Origin: an uncultured Thermoleophilia bacterium
GTDB taxonomy: Bacteria > Actinomycetota > Thermoleophilia > Miltoncostaeales > Miltoncostaeaceae
NCBI GenBank assembly: GCA_963802325.1
Contig: CAWDII010000003.1
Location: forward strand, 36,496-100,495
Length of the DNA: 64,000 nucleotides
Direction of reading: 5' to 3'
Of the stretch, positions 32,178 through 39,652 are shown in pieces; the stretch's first letter is position 1; the number at the start of each line of letters is the position of its first letter. The position numbers were made by a program, and so were the translations under genes. A model generated the notes under the pieces. That model saw nothing but the letters and a program-made list of their open reading frames with translations, did not search any database and was not told where the DNA came from.

Positions 32178-32203
32178 TCGCGGGCGCGGGTAGGGTGGCC
32201 GCC

Positions 32204-32986
32204 ATGCGCGCGATGATGATCGGAGACGTGTTCGCGGGGGTCGGCCTGCGGGCGCTCCTCACGCGCCTGCCCGAGCTGCGCGAGCAGTACCGGCCCGACA
32301 TCGTGGTCGTGAACTGCGAGAACGCCGCCGCGGGCGTCGGCACCTCTCCCCGTCAGGCCAAGGACCTCCTCGACGCGGGCGTCAACGTCCTCACGGGTGG
32401 CAACCACACGCTCCACAAGGCCGAGATCCTCCCGATGCTGGAGGCCGAGCCCCGGATGCTGCGCCCGGCCAACATCGCCGTCCGCGCCCCCGGACGCGGC
32501 ATGACGACGGTCGAGACCGCCGCCGGCCCGGTGAGCGTCATCAACGTCATGGGCTCGGTGTTCCTCACCTCCGCGCAGAGCCCCTTCGCCATCATCGACG
32601 ACCTCGTCGAGCAGGCGCGGCGCGCGGCGCCGATCGTGCTGGTGGACATGCACGCCGAGGCCACCAGCGAGAAGATCGCCCTCGCCCACCACCTCGCGGG
32701 GCGCGTCACCGCGGTCGTCGGCACCCACACCCACGTCCAGACCGCCGACGCCCGCGTCCTCGCCGGCGGCACCGCCTACATCAGCGACCTCGGCATGACC
32801 GGCCCCCACGACTCGGTGATCGGCGTGCGCACCGACATCGTCCTGCGCCGGTTCCTCCACGGCTCCTCCGGCCGCTTCGAGCCCGCCGACGGAGGCGTCC
32901 TCGTCCAGGGCGCCATCATCGACGCCGACGACGAGGGCCGCGCGACCGCGATCGAGAGCTTCAGCATCGAGGGTGAGGCTACGTAG
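32204..32986 (+). CDS. ymdB: YmdB/TIGR00282 metallophosphoesterase
   Basis: IGDV, NCENAAAG, TGGNH, DMHAEATSEK, GTHTHVQT, SDLGMTGP. Confidence 0.93.
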   Translation: MRAMMIGDVFAGVGLRALLTRLPELREQYRPDIVVVNCENAAAGVGTSPRQAKDLLDAGVNVLTGGNHTLHKAEILPMLEAEPRMLRPANIAVRAPGRGMTTVETAAGPVSVINVMGSVFLTSAQSPFAIIDDLVEQARRAAPIVLVDMHAEATSEKIALAHHLAGRVTAVVGTHTHVQTADARVLAGGTAYISDLGMTGPHDSVIGVRTDIVLRRFLHGSSGRFEPADGGVLVQGAIIDADDEGRATAIESFSIEGEAT

Positions 32987-33173
32987 ACCTCTGAGAGGCC
33001 GTTGGCGCGCAGGTCCGCGGGGGACGATCGTCTGGGGCGTCCATGGCACGCGGTGCCCGGGCGTACGACCTGCTCGGGACGGAGTGGTTCTGGCCCCACT
33101 CTTTGGGACGATCGTCTGGGGCGTCCATCGGAACGCCTTACCCGGACGTGCGTCGACGCACTGATCTCCCACT
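32981..33173 (+). repeat. Mosaic palindromic repeat (REP/BIME-like), left part of the copy interrupted by IS110
   Basis: Exact 24-nt repeat GGGACGATCGTCTGGGGCGTCCAT at 33021 and 33105; modules shared with 36113-36545. Confidence 0.7.
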
Positions 33174-33182
33174 AATGGCGCT

Positions 33183-33350
33183 GGATCAGCGTCATGGGAG
33201 AGGCTGATCCTCCGAGCCGCCGGTGGGTGAGCACTCTTTCCCACAGGGCCATGAGCCCTATCGCAAGAGCGTGCCCCTGCCGGGCGGTGAGGAGTCAGAT
33301 GGCTGGTGGGATGGCGTGCCCTCAGAGCACTGATCCATTAGGTCGCCACG
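33183..33350 (+). ncRNA. Bridge RNA of IS110 element 1 (ends approximate)
   Basis: 5' hairpin, then target loop (TTTCCCAC 33237-44, CGCAAG 33262-67) and donor loop (GTGGGATGGC 33306-15, CCATTAG 33335-41) matching the target and the circle junction. Confidence 0.85.
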
Positions 33351-33397
33351 GACTTCTCGGGCTCGGGGGCATGCGGTCACACAAGAGGAGGCGCGTC

Positions 33398-34612
33398 GTG
33401 ATCTTCGTGGGCGTCGACTGGGCCGAGGCCCACAACGACGTGGCGGTGATGGATGAGGCGGGGGCGGTGCTCGGCCGAGGGCGCTTCGGGGTCGGGCTGG
33501 GTGGCCTGGCCCAGTTGCACGGCCTGATCGCCGATCACGCCGATGAGCCCGAGCAGGTCGTGGTCGGCATCGAGATCGATCGGGGTCTGCTGGTTGACTC
33601 GCTCGCCGGCGCCGGTTACCGGATCTATGGCCTGAACCCCCTGGCGGTGAGCCGCTACCGCGATCGCCATACGACCTCACGCGCCAAGTCCGATGGCGCT
33701 GATGCCAAGCTCCTGGCCGATCTGGTGCGCACCGATCGCCACAACCACCGGCCGCTTGCCGGTGACTCGGATCAGGCGAGCGCCATCCGGGTGCTGGCCC
33801 GGGCCCACCAGGGCCTCGTCTGGATGCGCCAGCGCCAGCTCAACGGCCTGCGCTCGGCGCTTCGCGACTACTTCCCGGGCGCCCTTTCGGCCTTTGGCAC
33901 CGACCTGGCCTGCGCCGATGCACTGGCGATCCTCGCCATCGCACCGACGCCGCAGATCGCCAGAGGCCTTTCACGGTCGAGGATCGCTGCGGCCCTTGGC
34001 CGCGCCGGCCGCCAGCGCAACCTGGAGCGACGGGCGGCCGAGATCCAGGAGGCGTTGCGCGCCGGACAACCCGAGGCATCGGATGCGGTGGCCGATGCCC
34101 TCGGCGCAGCATCAGCTGCCCGGGTGGCGGTGATCGTGTCGCTCAACCAGCAGATCAGCGAGCTCGAGCGCGCCATGTCCGAGCATTTTGATCGTCACCC
34201 GGACGCCGAGATCCTTGGCAGTCTTGCCGGACTCGGCCCAGTGCTCGGCGCCCGGGTGCTCGGCGAGTTCGGGGACGACCCGAACCGCTTCGGCGATGCT
34301 AGAGGCCGAAAGGCCTATGCGGGAACCGCCCCGATCACCCGGGCATCGGGTCGCAGCCGGGTCGTGCTGGCGCGCGTGGTGCGCAACCGCCGGCTGGCGG
34401 ATGCCTGCGATCGCTGGGCCTTCTGCTCCCTGACCGCCAGCCCCGGGGCTCGCCGCTACTACGACGCCCTGCGTGCACGCGACAAGACCCACTCCCAGGC
34501 CACCCGCCAGCTCGCCAACCGCTGGGTCGGGATCCTGCACGCGTGCCTGGAGCAGCGCGCGCTCTACAGCGAGGAGGTCGCCTGGCCGCAGGACACTCTC
34601 CTGGCCGCTTGA
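33398..34612 (+). CDS. IS110-family recombinase/transposase
   Basis: FVGVDW, GIE, KSDGADA (DEDD), GLGPVLG, APITRASG; GAGGAGG RBS. Confidence 0.95.
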   Translation: MIFVGVDWAEAHNDVAVMDEAGAVLGRGRFGVGLGGLAQLHGLIADHADEPEQVVVGIEIDRGLLVDSLAGAGYRIYGLNPLAVSRYRDRHTTSRAKSDGADAKLLADLVRTDRHNHRPLAGDSDQASAIRVLARAHQGLVWMRQRQLNGLRSALRDYFPGALSAFGTDLACADALAILAIAPTPQIARGLSRSRIAAALGRAGRQRNLERRAAEIQEALRAGQPEASDAVADALGAASAARVAVIVSLNQQISELERAMSEHFDRHPDAEILGSLAGLGPVLGARVLGEFGDDPNRFGDARGRKAYAGTAPITRASGRSRVVLARVVRNRRLADACDRWAFCSLTASPGARRYYDALRARDKTHSQATRQLANRWVGILHACLEQRALYSEEVAWPQDTLLAA

Positions 34613-34635
34613 CTCCTTGGAGCCGTGGGATGTCT

Positions 34636-34713
34636 TGCGGGGAGATCAGGGCGACAAAATGGCCCCTGGCCGGGGCCATTTTGATTCCTGTGAGTCTGCG
34701 CGGTGACGGTTTC
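34636..34713 (+). repeat. Right part of the interrupted mosaic repeat
   Basis: TGCGGGGAGATCAGGGCGACAAAAT plus hairpin AAAATGGCCCC/GGGGCCATTTT; aligns with the reverse complement of ~36325-36402. Confidence 0.7.
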
Positions 34714-34724
34714 GTGTCTGGGGC

Positions 34725-36020
34725 CGTCGTTGCCAGGCTGGTGGCGAGTGGCCGGGCGTGACCCGTTTGGTTCCTGACCCGCCTGGGCGGTGTCCTTGGA
34801 TCGATGTGTCCGCTCGGTCGCTCGGCGCCGGCCTGGTGCCCGCCGCAGTGGCCTGATCAGGAGCCTGTCCGCCCTCGGGGCGTGACCCGTCACAGGTCTG
34901 CCGTGCGGTTTCCCAGCCCCAGGCCGGACGCCGTCCCCCCAAAGCGGAGTCTGGAGGTGGAGCAGATGGTGGCACAGTCAATCGATGTCGTGGTCGGCGT
35001 CGACACCCACCGTGATGCGCATGCCCTGGCGGTGGTGGGCGCAGGCACGGGCGAGGTGATCGCCGAGTTCGTGATCCGGGCCGATCCGGCCGGCTACCGG
35101 GGCGCGCTCGCGCGCGTTGAGGCTCTGGGGCGCGGCGAGCGCGCCTGGGCCGTGGAGGGCTGCGGCTCCTACGGGGCGGGCCTGTGGCGTCACCTGGCCC
35201 GGGCCGGTGAGCTGGTCGTGGAAGCGGGCCCTCCCGGGCCCGGTGTGCGGGCCAAGTCCGATGCCCTGGATGCGGTGCGGGCCGCCCGCTCGGTGCTCGG
35301 GGCGGTCCATGACACGCAGCCGCGCGCCGATGGGCCGCGCGAGATCCTGCGCGTCCTGATGCTCGCCCGCGATGGGGCGATCGACATCCGCCGGGCCGCC
35401 CTGTGCCAGCTGCGGGCAATGGTCCTCACCGCCCCCGACGGCCTGCGTGAGCCGCTTCGCGGGCTGACCCGCCAGGCGCTCCTTACCCGCTGCGCGGGCC
35501 TGCGCCCCCAGGCCCACACCGATCCGGTGACGGGCGCCGTCGCCCTGGCGCTGCGTGCGCTGGCGCGCAGGATCCTCAGCGCCAGCGCCGAGGCCCGCGA
35601 GCTCGAGCAGGCGATCGCCCTGCAGGTCACCCAGATCGCCCCGGCGCTCCTTGGCGAGGTCGGGGTCGGCCCGATCAACGCCGCCCGCCTTCTGATCAGC
35701 TGGTCGCATCGGGGGCGGATCCGCTCCGAGGCCGCCTTCGCACGCCTGGGCGGAGTGGCGCCGATCCCCGCCTCATCGGGTCAGGTGGTGCGCCATCGCC
35801 TGGATCGTGGTGGCGATCGCCAGCTCAACTACGCCCTGCACGCCATCGTGCTGGTGCGAAAGCGGATCGACCCGGCCACCCGGGCCTACATCGAGCGGCG
35901 TGTGGGCGAGGGAAAGAGCCGCCGCGATGCCACCCGCTGCCTCAAGCGCTACCTCGCCCGCCACCTCTTCCGACTCCTGGAGGCGACCGCCACGAGTGCT
36001 TGACACGACATAGGAGCATC
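34725..36020 (+). mobile_element. IS110-family element 2 (ends approximate)
   Basis: Transposase plus ~240-nt structured non-coding left end; right end TTGACACGACATAGGAGCATC. Confidence 0.75.
34966..36003 (+). CDS. IS110-family recombinase/transposase (second, divergent subgroup)
   Basis: VGVDTH, AVEGCGSYG, KSDALDA, GVGP, APIPASSG, RGGDRQLN, CLKRYLAR. Confidence 0.95.
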   Translation: MVAQSIDVVVGVDTHRDAHALAVVGAGTGEVIAEFVIRADPAGYRGALARVEALGRGERAWAVEGCGSYGAGLWRHLARAGELVVEAGPPGPGVRAKSDALDAVRAARSVLGAVHDTQPRADGPREILRVLMLARDGAIDIRRAALCQLRAMVLTAPDGLREPLRGLTRQALLTRCAGLRPQAHTDPVTGAVALALRALARRILSASAEARELEQAIALQVTQIAPALLGEVGVGPINAARLLISWSHRGRIRSEAAFARLGGVAPIPASSGQVVRHRLDRGGDRQLNYALHAIVLVRKRIDPATRAYIERRVGEGKSRRDATRCLKRYLARHLFRLLEATATSA

Positions 36021-36112
36021 GCTCCTCCGGGCTTCGCCCGGGGTACGTCGCGGTCAACCAATCACAGTGGTCCGTAGACGACGAACCCTGTTTCACGCTT
36101 CAGGCCTCACCC

Positions 36113-36545
36113 ACGTAGAAGCCTGGGAGGCCGTTGGCGCGCAACCCTGCGTGCGATCCAGGTCGGTCTTCATGGTGCCTTTGATCTTCGGATCGTCTGT
36201 GGCGCGCAATCCGAGGTGGTCGCGATATGGAAGCAGGCGCGGCGCGATGTGATCGTGTGGGCGTAGCCCCCGGAATCGTCCTGTGTGGCCGTCCCTGGTG
36301 CCTGATCGTCTCGGTGTTCCAGAGGCCGTCCCCGCCGAAGGCGGTGCCTGCTGGGTGCAAATCGCCTCGGTAGAGGCGATTTGCCGCCCTGATCTCCCCG
36401 CAAGAGGGAGATCAGTGCGTTGAACGCACGTCCGACGGCCCGATCGCGTCCCCGGCACGGCCATCGTCCCGCGCAAAGGGAGTGAGACCACTCCGTCCCG
36501 CGCAAAGCGGAGTGGAACCACCCCGCCCACGCCCCAGAGGATCAG
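36113..36545. repeat. Second, uninterrupted mosaic palindromic repeat (mostly inverted relative to the first)
   Basis: ACGTAGA-N7-GAGGCCGTTGGCGCGCA also at 32981; hairpins at ~36357-36384 and 36389-36415; tandem CGTCCCGCGCAAAG units at 36465-36523. Confidence 0.7.
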
Positions 36546-37823
36546 TCGAACGAGGTACCTCGCGGAGACGGCTTTCTCGGCGCGTTTGGGGTCGGCTCCC
36601 TGGCCGAGGACCCGGCCCTGGGGGCGGCCGGCGATGCTGGGTCGGGGCCAGCAGGCGGCGAGCAGGGCGATCAGGACGCTGTCGCGCAGCACCAGGATGG
36701 CGATCGGCCAGGTCTCGAGCGCGACCAGGTCCCAGTACTGATGGGGGAAGTAGGCGAAGGTGAGCATCATCGCGCTCGCGGTCAGCGCCGCCGCCAGCGG
36801 TCCGAACCGGCCGACGACGAGGAAGCAGACGGGCAGGAGCCACACCAGGAACTGGGGCGAGAGCACCTTGCCGCCGACCAGCAGGGCGACCATCGTCGAG
36901 GCGGATGCGGCGATGAACAGCCGTGCGTCGCCCGGCGCGCGGGCGCGGTGGAGCAGGAGCCAGAGCGTCCACGCGATGCCGATCAGGACGACGATCAGGA
37001 TCGCCGTGGAGATGCCGGCGATCACCGAGGGCCCGGTTCCGGCGAGGCCCTGGCTGCCGAACGAGCTCTCGACGGTGATCGGGACGTCGGCGAGCGCGTG
37101 CAGCCCGAGCAGGTACGCCGCGCCGGTCGCCTCCAGCTGCAGCGGCCGGTCGAGGTGGTACTGCGCCAGGTCCCACGTCCCCGAGGGCGACAGGATCACG
37201 AACGGCAGAAGGCCGGCGACGACGATCGCGAGGCTTCCCGCGAGGCCCGCCCACGCGCGGCGGGCGCCGGCGCGATGGCGCTGCCAGATCAGCAGGACCG
37301 GGATCAGGGCCAGCGGCACCAGCTTCAGCAGGGTGGCGCAGGCGAGCAGGGTCCAGGCGAGGCGCCACCGCTCGGTCACCGCCGCCCAGAGCGTCCATAC
37401 GAGCAGGGCCGCCAGGGCGAGGTCGAAGCGCGTCTCCACCAGGTTCCCGATCATCAGGGGGCTGACCGCCACGAGCACTCCGGCGGCGGTCTGGCGCCGC
37501 TCGTCCATGCCGAGGGCCCGGGCGATCGCGATCACCCCGAGCACGGTGGCGCAGAGGGCGAGGAGCATGAGGATCGAGAAGGTCACGCCGTACGGCCCCG
37601 GCAGGACGCCCGCGAGCCAGAACAGCGCCCCGGCCAGCGGCGGGTACTCGAGCGTGAAGTCGGCATAGGGGATCTGACCGTCGGCGATCAGGTCGTAGGC
37701 GCGCTGGTAGGTGGGGATGTCGGTGATGACGGAGTCGGCGTAGACGCCGAGCTGCAGGGGGATCGCCCACACCACGACGGCCAGGGCCACCGCGAAGGCC
37801 GGCAGGGATCGGCGCTGGTTCAC
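36542..37823 (-). CDS. GT87-like (GT-C) membrane glycosyltransferase; inferred stop at 36542, read-through to 36093 as sequenced
   Basis: PYADFTLEYPPL, RFDL, KLVP, RPLQLE, KVLSPQFLVWL; removing one T from GTTCGACTGA gives ...YLVD*. Confidence 0.85.
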
Positions 37824-39652
37824 GTCGCCACCGTCACGGGCTCGAGCGCGGGGGCGGACTCGGGCAGCGGGCGGCGGGCGCGGACCGGCGCCGGCCAATC
37901 GGGGACCATCGCGACCAGCGCGAAGGGCAGGAACCACGGGATGTAGAGGTAGAACCAGTGCGTGAGCGTGAGCTCGACCCCGATCAGTAGTGCTCCGGAC
38001 AGTGCGGTCATCGTCAGCATGTCGAGCCGGCGCGGCCAGCGCAGCACGGCGAGGCCCGCCGCGGCCACCAGCACCATCAGCCCGATCTGCACCGGGCGCA
38101 GGCCGGGGTGCTGGCCCCAGATGGAGAAGGGCGACTCGCGGCCCAGCTGATAGCCGATGGTGCGCGACCAGAATGCCCGCAAACCGTCGCCGCCGTCGAG
38201 CAGCAGCACCCAGCCCGTCAGGACGACGGCGCCGGCGAGGCCGGCCGCGAAGGGCAGCAGCGTGCGCCCGGAGGGGCGGCGCGGGTAGGGGTGACGGCTC
38301 CAGAGCGGCAGCAGGATCGCCGGCGCGAACTTGGTGCCGAGGGCGAGCCCCAGCATCAGGCCGCGCCCGACCGGGTGGCGTGCCACGACCAGGCCCCAGA
38401 TCAGCATCGCCGCGACCAGGGAGTCGTTGGAGTTGGTCTCGAGCGCGTAGGCGGTGAAGGGGAAGGCGGCCCAGGCCAGGGCGAGGCCGATCCCCAGCCG
38501 CAGGCCGGACAGGCGCCACCCCAGCAGCAGCAGTCCGCCCAGGCAGAGCAGGTCGAACATGGTGGCGGCGCCGTGCGCGGCCGGCAGCGCGTCCCACTTT
38601 CCATTCCACGGCTCGGCGAACTCGAAGGGGACGTAGGCGATGTAGTTCAGCGGCCCGTAGGTGTCGCAGCTGCCGCAGTCGCTGGGCATCGTGCCGTAGG
38701 GGGTCGCCCCGTGCTGGATGCGGTCGGCGCCGATCACCCCGGCGTACCCGACGTCGATCACGTTCGCGTCGAACGCGTTGAGCCCGAACCTCAGGGCGAG
38801 CGAGATCGCGAGCAGCGTGACGAGCACCCAGGTGGGCGCCGACCCGCCGAAGGTGGGCCGCCGGCGCGCCGCCGGGGCCGGTGCCTCCTCGCCGGCGCCC
38901 GGGCGGGCGGCGCGCACCCGCGCCACGGCGATCCAGGCCAGCCGTATCGCGAGGTAGAGCATCGGCGGGTACTGGAGGGGCACCGAGGTGAAGACCTCGC
39001 CGCTGTTGAACCAGATCAGCGAGAACCCGAACGAGAGCAGCACCAGCAGGTCGAGGGTCCGCCAGGAGATCAGGCCGCGGGGGCGCGTGAACGGCAACAG
39101 CGGGATGAGGAAGAGCGCGCACAGCCACAGCCACACCGCCGGCCGGTTGATCGCCTTGCCGAAGGCGCCGTCGTAGCCGCGGGCCATCATCCAGGCAACC
39201 TGCGGGCCGGTGCGCACCTCGGTGATCTGCCCGCTGTCGTCGGCCACCAGCACCTGGGCCTCGACGGTCTCGTCGCCACCCTCGTCCTTGCTGACCGCGA
39301 AGTAGGTGTGCACGCCCTTCTTCGCGTCGTAGCTGACGGCGGTCCGGAAGATCGTGCGGTCCTCGACCCAGTCGTTCAGCTCCTGCGAGGTCCGGGCGAT
39401 CGCGGTGACCTCGTCGTCGGTGAGCGACGCGCCGCGCCGCGCGGCCGGTGAGGCGATCGACTCCTTGATCTCCCCGGCCTTGTCGGCCACCGCGCGGACC
39501 AGCGCCTCGGCCGCTCCCCGCGCCTCGGCCGGCGTGGGCTCGCTGACCGCGCGCTCGGGGGCGTCGGCCGCGCCCGCGCTCCCCGCGGTCCCCAGCGCCG
39601 CGACGGCCACGGTCGCCAGCAGGGCGGCGAGGGCCCGTCGCGGGGACCGCAT
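37820..39652 (-). CDS. GT87-like glycosyltransferase with N-terminal extracytoplasmic domain
   Basis: Signal-like N-terminus, DVGYAG, DTYGP, NSNDSL, KFAP, RESPFSIWG, WFYLYIPW. Confidence 0.8.
   Translation of the reverse strand: MRSPRRALAALLATVAVAALGTAGSAGAADAPERAVSEPTPAEARGAAEALVRAVADKAGEIKESIASPAARRGASLTDDEVTAIARTSQELNDWVEDRTIFRTAVSYDAKKGVHTYFAVSKDEGGDETVEAQVLVADDSGQITEVRTGPQVAWMMARGYDGAFGKAINRPAVWLWLCALFLIPLLPFTRPRGLISWRTLDLLVLLSFGFSLIWFNSGEVFTSVPLQYPPMLYLAIRLAWIAVARVRAARPGAGEEAPAPAARRRPTFGGSAPTWVLVTLLAISLALRFGLNAFDANVIDVGYAGVIGADRIQHGATPYGTMPSDCGSCDTYGPLNYIAYVPFEFAEPWNGKWDALPAAHGAATMFDLLCLGGLLLLGWRLSGLRLGIGLALAWAAFPFTAYALETNSNDSLVAAMLIWGLVVARHPVGRGLMLGLALGTKFAPAILLPLWSRHPYPRRPSGRTLLPFAAGLAGAVVLTGWVLLLDGGDGLRAFWSRTIGYQLGRESPFSIWGQHPGLRPVQIGLMVLVAAAGLAVLRWPRRLDMLTMTALSGALLIGVELTLTHWFYLYIPWFLPFALVAMVPDWPAPVRARRPLPESAPALEPVTVAT

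What the first reader, a model, noticed from the sequence alone, without database searches (positions are those of the whole stretch)
33172..34635. IS110 element whose bridge RNA, donor junction and target are all readable, with an empty paralogous target next door
Seen: the element lies between two CT dinucleotides (33172-73, 34634-35). Excising it rebuilds a hairpin with target TCTCCCA-CT-TGCG and gives circle junction GTGGGATGT-CT-AATGG. The non-coding left end holds two internal loops. Loop 1 has TTTCCCAC (33237-44; 7/8 to the left target, the mismatch being a G-U wobble) and CGCAAG (33262-67; exact reverse complement of CTTGCG) around hairpin AGGGC/GCCCT. Loop 2 has GTGGGATGGC (33306-15; 9/10 to the donor left arm) and CCATTAG (33335-41; exact reverse complement of CTAATGG) around GTGC/GCAC. 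Established: this is the architecture of IS621-type bridge RNAs (LTG/RTG, LDG/RDG, CT core). Inference: an intact, programmable RNA-guided recombinase from a little-studied high-GC lineage, aimed at a host repeat. The unoccupied copy at 36389-36415 has one extra mismatch next to the core (TCTCCCT-CT), which may explain why it is empty.
Basis: partly seen in the sequence, partly recalled or inferred. Interest (0 to 1): 0.9.

Follow-up and report, generated by a model that had tools for sequence, protein, structure and literature searches.

The report
IS110 element with readable bridge RNA
This is a typical, very cleanly readable member of the known RNA-guided IS110 "bridge recombinase" jumping genes, from an uncultured high-GC Thermoleophilia bacterium; its guide RNA spells out both its own ends and the loop of a host repeat hairpin into which it inserts.

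Summary
The element is 1460 bp (33174-34633) between two CT dinucleotides. It has a 224-nt non-coding left end, a 404-aa IS110-family recombinase (NCBIfam "IS110 family RNA-guided transposase", above cut-off) and a 21-nt right end.

The genome holds three copies, all at the same base of the same hairpin of a ~535-bp host repeat. There are also 17 empty sites identical to the rebuilt target and 15 empty sites with the -1 mismatch (TCTCCCT).

I collected about 70 homologous elements (59-84% identity). Their left ends fold into the same two stem-loops with internal loops, and the stems covary. The loop-1 guides track each element's own flanks: 4.4 of 7 and 4.4 of 5 positions match, against 2.0 and 2.4 for permuted pairs. 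Loop 2 tracks the element ends. Polarity and CT core are as in IS621.

However, this is a new member of a known kind, and the scan has more than 1300 notes on IS110 bridge RNAs elsewhere. RNA expression, circle formation and programmability were not shown. The -1 mismatch is a plausible but unproven reason why the neighbouring site is empty, since 17 perfect sites are empty too.

The parts
33105..33173 (+). Left half of the host repeat end (type A). It carries a 6-bp hairpin (GTGCGT..ACGCAC), the 5' arm of the target hairpin, the left target TCTCCCA and the left copy of the CT core (33172-73).
   Evidence: Repeated about 20 times in the genome. It abuts the element in all 3 copies.
33174..33397 (+). 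Non-coding left end (224 nt), the bridge RNA gene. It starts with the right donor AATGG. It has a 5' hairpin at 33183-33210 and a ribosome-binding site AAGAGGAGG at 33383-91.
   Evidence: Conserved and alignable in 55 homologs. The fold z-score is -3.15.
33219..33285 (+). Target-binding stem-loop. It has an outer stem, the left target guide UUUCCCAC (33237-44), the inner hairpin AGGGC/GCCCU (33245-59) and the right target guide CGCAAG (33262-67; 33261 adds a U-G wobble).
   Evidence: The outer stem and inner hairpin show compensatory changes in many sequences. The guides match the flanks and covary with the flanks in homologs.
33289..33358 (+). Donor-binding stem-loop. The outer stem is GAGGAGUC/GACUUCUC. 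The left donor guide is GUGGGAUGGC (33306-15), the inner hairpin is GUGC/GCAC (33316-30) and the right donor guide is CCAUUAG (33335-41).
   Evidence: Constrained folds give the outer stem in 47 of 55 homologs, with different stem sequences in different subfamilies. The donor guides follow the element ends in homologs.
33398..34612 (+). IS110-family recombinase gene (GTG start, 404 aa). It carries D7, E59, D99 and D102 in the RuvC-like domain and S317 in the SG motif of the C-terminal domain.
   Evidence: Pfam PF01548 at 2e-32 and PF02371 at 2e-10. NCBIfam NF033542 scores 173.5 bits against a cut-off of 140. PDB matches ISCro4 at 7e-8 and IS621 at 3e-6.
34609..34633 (+). Right end. A -35-like TTGACT (34609-14) overlaps the TGA stop codon. 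The left donor GTGGGATGT lies at 34625-33. After circularisation, TTGACT, 18 nt and TCTAAT would form a promoter-like site across the joint.
   Evidence: TTGAC[A/G/T] spaced 17-18 nt from TCTAAT is found in 57 of 57 rebuilt homolog junctions.
34634..34688 (+). Right copy of the CT core (34634-35), the right target TGCG, the 3' arm of the target hairpin, and the rest of the host repeat end with an AAAATGGCCCC/GGGGCCATTTT hairpin.
36389..36415 (-). Empty paralogous hairpin (type B end of the same host repeat copy). It reads TCTCCCT-CT-TGCG, with a mismatch to the left target guide at position -1.
   Evidence: It is one of 15 such sites, none of them occupied.

Best explanation
This is an IS110-group insertion sequence that moves by bridge-RNA-guided recombination, as IS621 does. 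The left end encodes an RNA with two stem-loops, each holding an internal loop.

[quoted passage not shown] In loop 2, GUGGGAUGGC reads the element's right end and CCAUUAG reads its left end.

The recombinase (DEDD domain plus serine domain) would use this RNA to bring the joined ends of an excised circle together with the loop of one hairpin of a host repeat, and to exchange strands at CT.

Shown here: the anatomy, the exact insertion point in three copies, a conserved RNA structure, and guide-flank covariation in relatives.

Inferred: transcription of the RNA (probably from a promoter assembled at the circle junction), circle formation, present-day activity and reprogrammability.
For: (1) Family membership is supported by Pfam, NCBIfam and PDB matches.

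(2) Three copies lie at the identical base of the same hairpin, between CT and CT. 17 empty sites are identical to the rebuilt target.

(3) All four guide matches are at the stated places. 0 of 20000 shuffles reproduce them.

(4) In the 55-sequence alignment, the consensus fold has 33 pairs, 15 of them with compensatory changes. For example, 20 and 25 sequences changed on both sides at columns 80:144 and 106:121. The donor-loop outer stem appears in 47 of 55 sequences.

(5) Across 58 unique insertions of homologs, the left guide matches the left flank at 4.43 of 7 positions, against 2.03 (sd 0.16) for permuted pairs. The right guide matches the right flank at 4.38 of 5, against 2.39 (sd 0.12). 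No permutation out of 5000 reached the observed values.

(6) Same-genus relatives at 81-84% DNA identity carry different loop-1 guides and sit in correspondingly different sites.

(7) The donor guides follow the element ends. GGGGTGT ends always go with GGGGUGU guides. Every A/G difference is compatible with a wobble pair. A CTAATAG left end goes with a CUAUUAG guide.

(8) The four differences in the left end of the third copy all lie in stems (keeping the pair) or in a hairpin loop. None is in a guide.

(9) Occupancy is mosaic among three host repeat copies that are 99.1-99.4% identical. The third copy sits in a host repeat that is about 7% diverged, while the element itself differs by 1.3%. 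The element therefore arrived on its own, not as a passenger.
Against: There is no RNA evidence and no circle junction: GGGATGTCTAATGG is absent from the assembly.

Only 3 of 20 perfect sites are occupied, and one copy is frameshifted with a stop at residue 244. Activity is therefore low or past.

The left guides read only the C of the CT core. The next base belongs to the inner stem.

Position 7 of the left donor guide (G) does not match the T of the end. It varies freely (G/T/A/C) in homologs while the end stays T.

Positions -6 and -7 of the left target show no more matching than chance across the clade.

The junction -10 (TCTAAT) has C at the position where A is most conserved. No sigma-70-type site is found in the integrated state.
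Confidence: 0.9

Rival explanations
1. The three copies did not arise by targeted insertion. The host repeat multiplies on its own and carried an already inserted element along, so the shared insertion point reflects one old event.
For: The host repeats of the two near-identical copies (C3 and C10a) are themselves 99.2% identical. Divergence of the element and of its host repeat rank in the same order.
Against: A third host repeat copy that is 99.1-99.4% identical to those two lacks this element and carries only the second IS. C10a lacks the second IS, while C3 has both. That pattern needs separate gains or precise losses at the CT core. The third element copy differs by 1.3% and sits in a host repeat about 7% diverged from all others. 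Homologs in other genomes sit at sites that match their own guides.
Confidence: 0.06
2. The element is a readable but no longer mobile relic. The guides still match because nothing has changed since the last insertions.
For: 17 perfect targets are unoccupied. One of the three copies is frameshifted.
Against: Two copies differ by 1 base in 1460 and encode identical intact proteins with the catalytic-type residues in place. The left-end substitutions in the third copy keep the structure. The junction promoter-like site is intact.
Confidence: 0.2
3. The left-end motifs are DNA sites bound by the recombinase (sub-terminal repeats), not RNA guides. Their likeness to the flanks reflects DNA-level site preference.
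For: None specific. The sequence alone cannot show that the strand is transcribed.
Against: The motifs lie in the internal loops of stems that are kept by compensatory changes. That is a signature of RNA, not of DNA sites. Strand polarity follows the IS621 rule on both loops (for the rule, for the match). The mechanism has been shown biochemically for the family (PMC11208160, PMC11208158).
Confidence: 0.02

Closest known systems
IS621 / ISCro4 (IS622) bridge recombinases with bridge RNA (IS110 group; Durrant et al. 2024, PMC11208160; Hiraizumi et al. 2024, PMC11208158; PDB 8wt6, 9t56)
   Same: Shared features:
- A long left end that encodes the RNA upstream of the recombinase, and a short right end.
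- A CT core duplicated at both ends.
[quoted passage not shown]
- A donor loop more conserved than the target loop.
- The -35 element of a promoter in the right end.
- A host repeat as target.
   Different: The protein is only distantly related (E 3e-6 to 7e-8 over the N-terminal domain) and longer (404 against about 330-340 aa). The host has 74% GC. In this clade the left guides cover only the first core base, and the informative left target is about 5 bases. No experiment has been done on this element.
ISPpu10 and ISPpu9 of Pseudomonas putida (IS110 elements in REP hairpins; bioRxiv 10.64898/2026.03.19.712850; PMC12288879)
   Same: They insert into many identical copies of a structured intergenic repeat, and most copies stay empty. 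The target is part of a stem-loop.
   Different: In ISPpu10 the left target forms the 3' arm of a stem-loop lying 5' of the core. Here the core sits in the 7-base loop of a 10-bp hairpin, so insertion splits the hairpin. A role for the structure here is untested.
Unnamed clade of IS110 elements in Thermoleophilia, Acidimicrobiia and Mycobacterium genomes (loci L031-L110)
   Same: 59-81% protein identity. The left-end RNA has the same architecture. The CTAATGG left end, GGGATGT/GGGGTGT right end and CT core are the same.
   Different: Loop-1 guides and targets differ. None of those inspected targets this host repeat.
IS1111-group elements with seekRNA
   Same: Same recombinase family and the same two-guide logic.
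   Different: Those carry the RNA in a long right end downstream of the gene. Here the right end is 21 nt and the RNA lies upstream.

Membership tests
IS110 family, IS110 group (bridge recombinase elements) | Recombinase with an N-terminal RuvC-like DEDD domain and a C-terminal Tnp domain carrying a conserved serine | tested here: met
   PF01548 at 2e-32 and PF02371 at 2e-10. NF033542 scores 173.5 bits against a cut-off of 140. D7, E59, D99, D102 and S317 align with the corresponding ISCro4 motifs. That these are the catalytic residues is inferred from the family.
IS110 family, IS110 group (bridge recombinase elements) | Long non-coding left end upstream of the gene, short right end, no long terminal inverted repeats | tested here: met
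   The left end is 224 nt and the right end 21 nt.
IS110 family, IS110 group (bridge recombinase elements) | Two-base core present once in the empty site and at both ends of the inserted element | tested here: met
   CT at 33172-73 and 34634-35. The empty sites hold a single CT. The contig joint has a 2-base ambiguity.
IS621-type bridge RNA | Two stem-loops, each with an internal loop around a short inner hairpin, kept by covariation | tested here: met
   The target stem-loop has 15 of 33 consensus pairs with compensatory changes. The donor outer stem appears in 47 of 55 constrained folds, with subfamily-specific sequences. The donor inner hairpin is invariant and so uninformative.
IS621-type bridge RNA | The 5' loop strands have the sense of left target or donor plus core. 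The 3' loop strands are the reverse complement of core plus right target or donor. | tested here: met
   The rule comes from PMC11208160. One departure: the left guides include only the C of the core.
IS621-type bridge RNA | Guides covary with the flanks and ends across homologs | tested here: met
   Permutation test on 58 insertions. Same-genus relatives have other guides and other sites.
IS621-type bridge RNA | The RNA is transcribed, from a promoter completed at the circle junction | tested here: inconclusive
   A promoter-like TTGAC(N), 17-18 nt, TCTAAT is conserved in 57 of 57 rebuilt junctions. The -10 is imperfect, and no RNA data could be laid on the stretch.
IS621-type bridge RNA | Recombination depends on the RNA and follows reprogrammed guides | not testable with these tools
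   This needs a plasmid or in vitro recombination assay.
Rfam RNA families | A match of the left end to a curated covariance model | tested here: not met
   No family matched 33174-33397 at E up to 1. No model in the library matched this left end.

The most novel reading that the evidence does not exclude
The host repeat may be more than a sequence match. Its hairpin (CT in a 7-base loop over a 10-bp stem, next to a second 6-bp hairpin) could be a structural gate for the recombinase, as proposed for ISPpu10. The ~535-bp repeat family could serve as a shared safe landing pad for two unrelated bridge recombinases. The natural A/T difference at position -1 between its two inverted ends could act as an on/off switch for this element.
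Probability: 0.2. Interest if true: 0.5.

Novelty: new member of a known kind. Interest (0 to 1): 0.3.

Why it matters
It adds a cleanly annotated bridge recombinase from an uncultured, 74% GC actinobacterial class. Its target, donor, guides and boundaries are all fixed to the base.

The genome also offers a built-in natural specificity test: 3 occupied sites, 17 empty perfect sites and 15 empty sites with a mismatch at -1.

Such an ortholog could be tried as an editing tool in high-GC hosts.

The clade alignment suggests that about 5 left-target bases, the core and 4-5 right-target bases carry the specificity.

It does not change what is known about how these elements work.

Tried and rejected
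(1) Read mining for the circle junction. All runs on offer were kept as contigs, not raw reads. No joint running from the right end back to the left end was seen, and contigs drop rare forms. The joints that skip the element (33171 to 34634) are explained by the 17 empty paralogs, so they are not evidence of excision.

(2) Rfam matched nothing in the left end or in the host repeat.

(3) My first regular-expression parse of the loops failed for most homologs. I replaced it with alignment columns.

(4) RNAalifold on the MAFFT alignment did not return the donor outer stem, because the arms are gapped differently. Constrained single-sequence folds did return it. RNAalifold also paired the first seven bases (CUAAUGG) with the right donor guide. 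That is simply the donor-guide complementarity seen in cis, and would vanish if transcription starts downstream of the junction -10.

(5) The passenger hypothesis was tested with a host-repeat identity matrix and largely rejected.

(6) Occupancy of type A against type B sites is 3 of 20 against 0 of 15. By my own arithmetic, the chance that all three fall in type A is 1140/6545 = 0.17, which is not significant.

(7) The promoter and terminator scan of the integrated element found nothing.

(8) The left target guide (UCCCAC) is complementary to the left donor guide (GUGGGA). Homologs with other targets lack this, so I treat it as a coincidence of this target.

Full report
**Observation.**
I read 33000-34800. 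The CT dinucleotides lie at 33172-73 and 34634-35. The flanks read TCTCCCA and TGCG. The element starts AATGG and ends GTGGGATGT. The four loop strings are at 33237-44, 33262-67, 33306-15 and 33335-41, around AGGGC/GCCCT and GTGC/GCAC.

The open frame starts at GTG 33398, behind AAGAGGAGG, and ends at 34612. It carries both IS110 Pfam domains and passes the NCBIfam equivalog "IS110 family RNA-guided transposase" at 173.5 bits against a cut-off of 140. Its only solved relatives are ISCro4 and IS621, and both are distant. The DEDD-type acidic residues and the SG serine are in place.

In 20000 dinucleotide-preserving shuffles of the left end, the four matches never occurred together in the right order.

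**Copies and target in the same genome.**
The assembly (3.5 Mb, 74% GC, 10 contigs) holds three copies. All lie at the same base of the same hairpin, each between CT and CT. Two copies differ by one base and encode identical proteins. The third differs by 1.3% and has a one-base deletion that stops the frame at residue 244. Its four left-end differences fall in stems (U-G to C-G, U-A to U-G) or in a hairpin loop. None is in a guide.

A search with the rebuilt empty site found 32 unoccupied hairpins:
- 17 are identical to the target (TCTCCCA-CT-TGCG).
- 15 carry T at position -1 (TCTCCCT-CT-TGCG).

These two forms are the two inverted ends of a host repeat of about 535 bp. The site at 36389-36415 is the type B end of the very repeat copy that holds the element.

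**Is it the element that moves, or the repeat?**
The host repeats of the two near-identical copies are 99.2% alike, so a passenger model had to be checked. An identity matrix of 15 host repeat copies, with the insertions removed, shows three copies at 99.1-99.4% that differ in occupancy. One has this element plus a second IS110 element, one has only this element, and one has only the second element. The frameshifted copy lies in a host repeat about 7% diverged from all others. Separate gains, or precise losses at CT, are therefore required.

**Comparative test of the RNA.**
A scan of one genome per species returned 80 loci with 59-81% protein identity. Most come from Thermoleophilia, Acidimicrobiia and Mycobacterium genomes. 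Their left ends align well.

The consensus fold gives the target stem-loop with many compensatory pairs. Folding each sequence with the guides kept single-stranded gives a donor outer stem in 47 of 55, with different stem sequences in different subfamilies.

I fixed the element ends by the conserved CTAATGG and GGG(A/G)T(G/A)T-CT motifs, which are independent of loop 1. I then compared each element's loop-1 strands with its own flanks. Across 58 unique insertions:
- The left guide matches 4.43 of 7 flank bases, against 2.03 (sd 0.16) for permuted pairs.
- The right guide matches 4.38 of 5, against 2.39 (sd 0.12).
- No permutation out of 5000 reached the observed values.

Matching is strongest next to the core: 98%, 84% and 79% at -1, -2 and -3, and 100%, 100%, 93% and 86% at +1 to +4. 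It falls to background at -6 and -7.

The donor guides follow the ends. GGGGTGT ends go with GGGGUGU guides. All A/G differences are compatible with wobble pairs. A CTAATAG left end goes with CUAUUAG.

Same-genus relatives at 81-84% DNA identity have other loop-1 sequences and sit in matching, different sites. One more relative, in genome G011, has yet another site.

The rule for strand polarity is taken from Durrant et al., and this element follows it.

**Expression.**
Joining the right end to the left end creates TTGACT, 18 nt, TCTAAT. The -35 overlaps the stop codon, and the -10 is built from the last T of the right end, the CT core and AAT. The same arrangement is present in 57 of 57 rebuilt homolog junctions.

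The integrated copy has no sigma-70-type site. This fits the IS621 model, in which the RNA and recombinase are switched on after circle formation. However, the -10 is imperfect and no RNA data were available.

**Reads.**
The stretch is held by freshwater-sediment and other sediment metagenomes. Only contigs could be laid on it. They show the flank-to-flank joint with a 2-base overlap, which the empty paralogs explain. They show no circle junction. A relative in another study's sediment run sits in a similar hairpin with different outer flanks (run X5).

**Lineage.**
Genome G003, placed in the same genus by the tool, has a contig of the same length and the same locus coordinates as a record titled "uncultured Thermoleophilia bacterium". 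The host is therefore an uncultured Thermoleophilia (Actinomycetota).

**Comparison and verdict.**
All defining features that sequence can test are met. The element is a member of the IS110 group with an IS621-type bridge RNA.

Departures from IS621 are small:
- The left guides cover only the first core base.
- Position 7 of the left donor guide is free.
- The informative left target is about five bases.

Insertion into structured host repeats is known for IS621, ISPpu9 and ISPpu10. Here the core lies in the hairpin loop rather than beside a 5' stem-loop.

The -1 mismatch of the type B ends is a reasonable cause of non-use, given the 98% match at -1 across the clade. But 17 perfect sites are empty too, and 3 of 20 against 0 of 15 is not significant.

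The scan holds more than 1300 notes on IS110 bridge RNAs in other genomes.

This is a new member of a known kind, of moderate-to-low interest. It is useful mainly as a well-defined high-GC ortholog with a natural specificity series.

Noticed in passing
window 34689-36020: A second, different IS110-family element lies 55 bp downstream in the same host repeat copy. Its gene runs from ATG 34966 to 36003, and NF033542 scores 138.6 bits, just under the cut-off of 140. There are four copies at 99.85-100% identity, all between GATTCC and GCTCC. They sit in host repeats that differ by up to 10%, so the insertions are recent and independent. Its left end holds TCCGCTC (34809-15, the target read across the joint), AGGAGC (34859-64) and TCACAG (34890-95, the reverse complement of C-TGTGA). 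The flank overlap is only 1 base.
   Followed up: partly
window 33022-33173, 34634-34688 and 36021-36520; for example L018:1441-2096: A host repeat of about 535 bp has two inverted, hairpin-rich ends (type A and type B) and a more variable middle. The genome holds at least 15 full copies. It was found in multiple copies in 9 of 18 same-genus genomes searched. It matches no Rfam family. Part of its left end (GGGACGATCGTC..GGGGCGTCCAT) is duplicated again at 33022-33045.
   Followed up: partly
window 34223-34303 (-): Rfam Ms_AS-4 (RF02464, 'Actinobacteria sRNA') matches at 73.9 bits, antisense to the conserved helix-hairpin-helix part of the recombinase gene. The family appears to model a conserved stretch of IS110 transposase genes rather than a free-standing sRNA.
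   Followed up: no
G000:C10:719943-721401 (+) and G000:C10:751213-752672 (-): Two copies of the element lie about 30 kb apart in inverted orientation on one contig. That arrangement could support inversion of the segment between them.
   Followed up: no
window 33239-33244 and 33306-33311: The left target guide (UCCCAC) is the exact complement of the first six bases of the left donor guide (GUGGGA), so the two loops could pair with each other. Homologs with other targets lack this, so it is probably a coincidence of this target.
   Followed up: partly
window 32195-32986 (+): The gene upstream of the host repeat encodes a YmdB-like metallophosphoesterase (PF13277, 2e-92). The repeat and both IS elements lie between it and a large GT87-type membrane glycosyltransferase gene on the other strand (36093-39134).
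   Followed up: no
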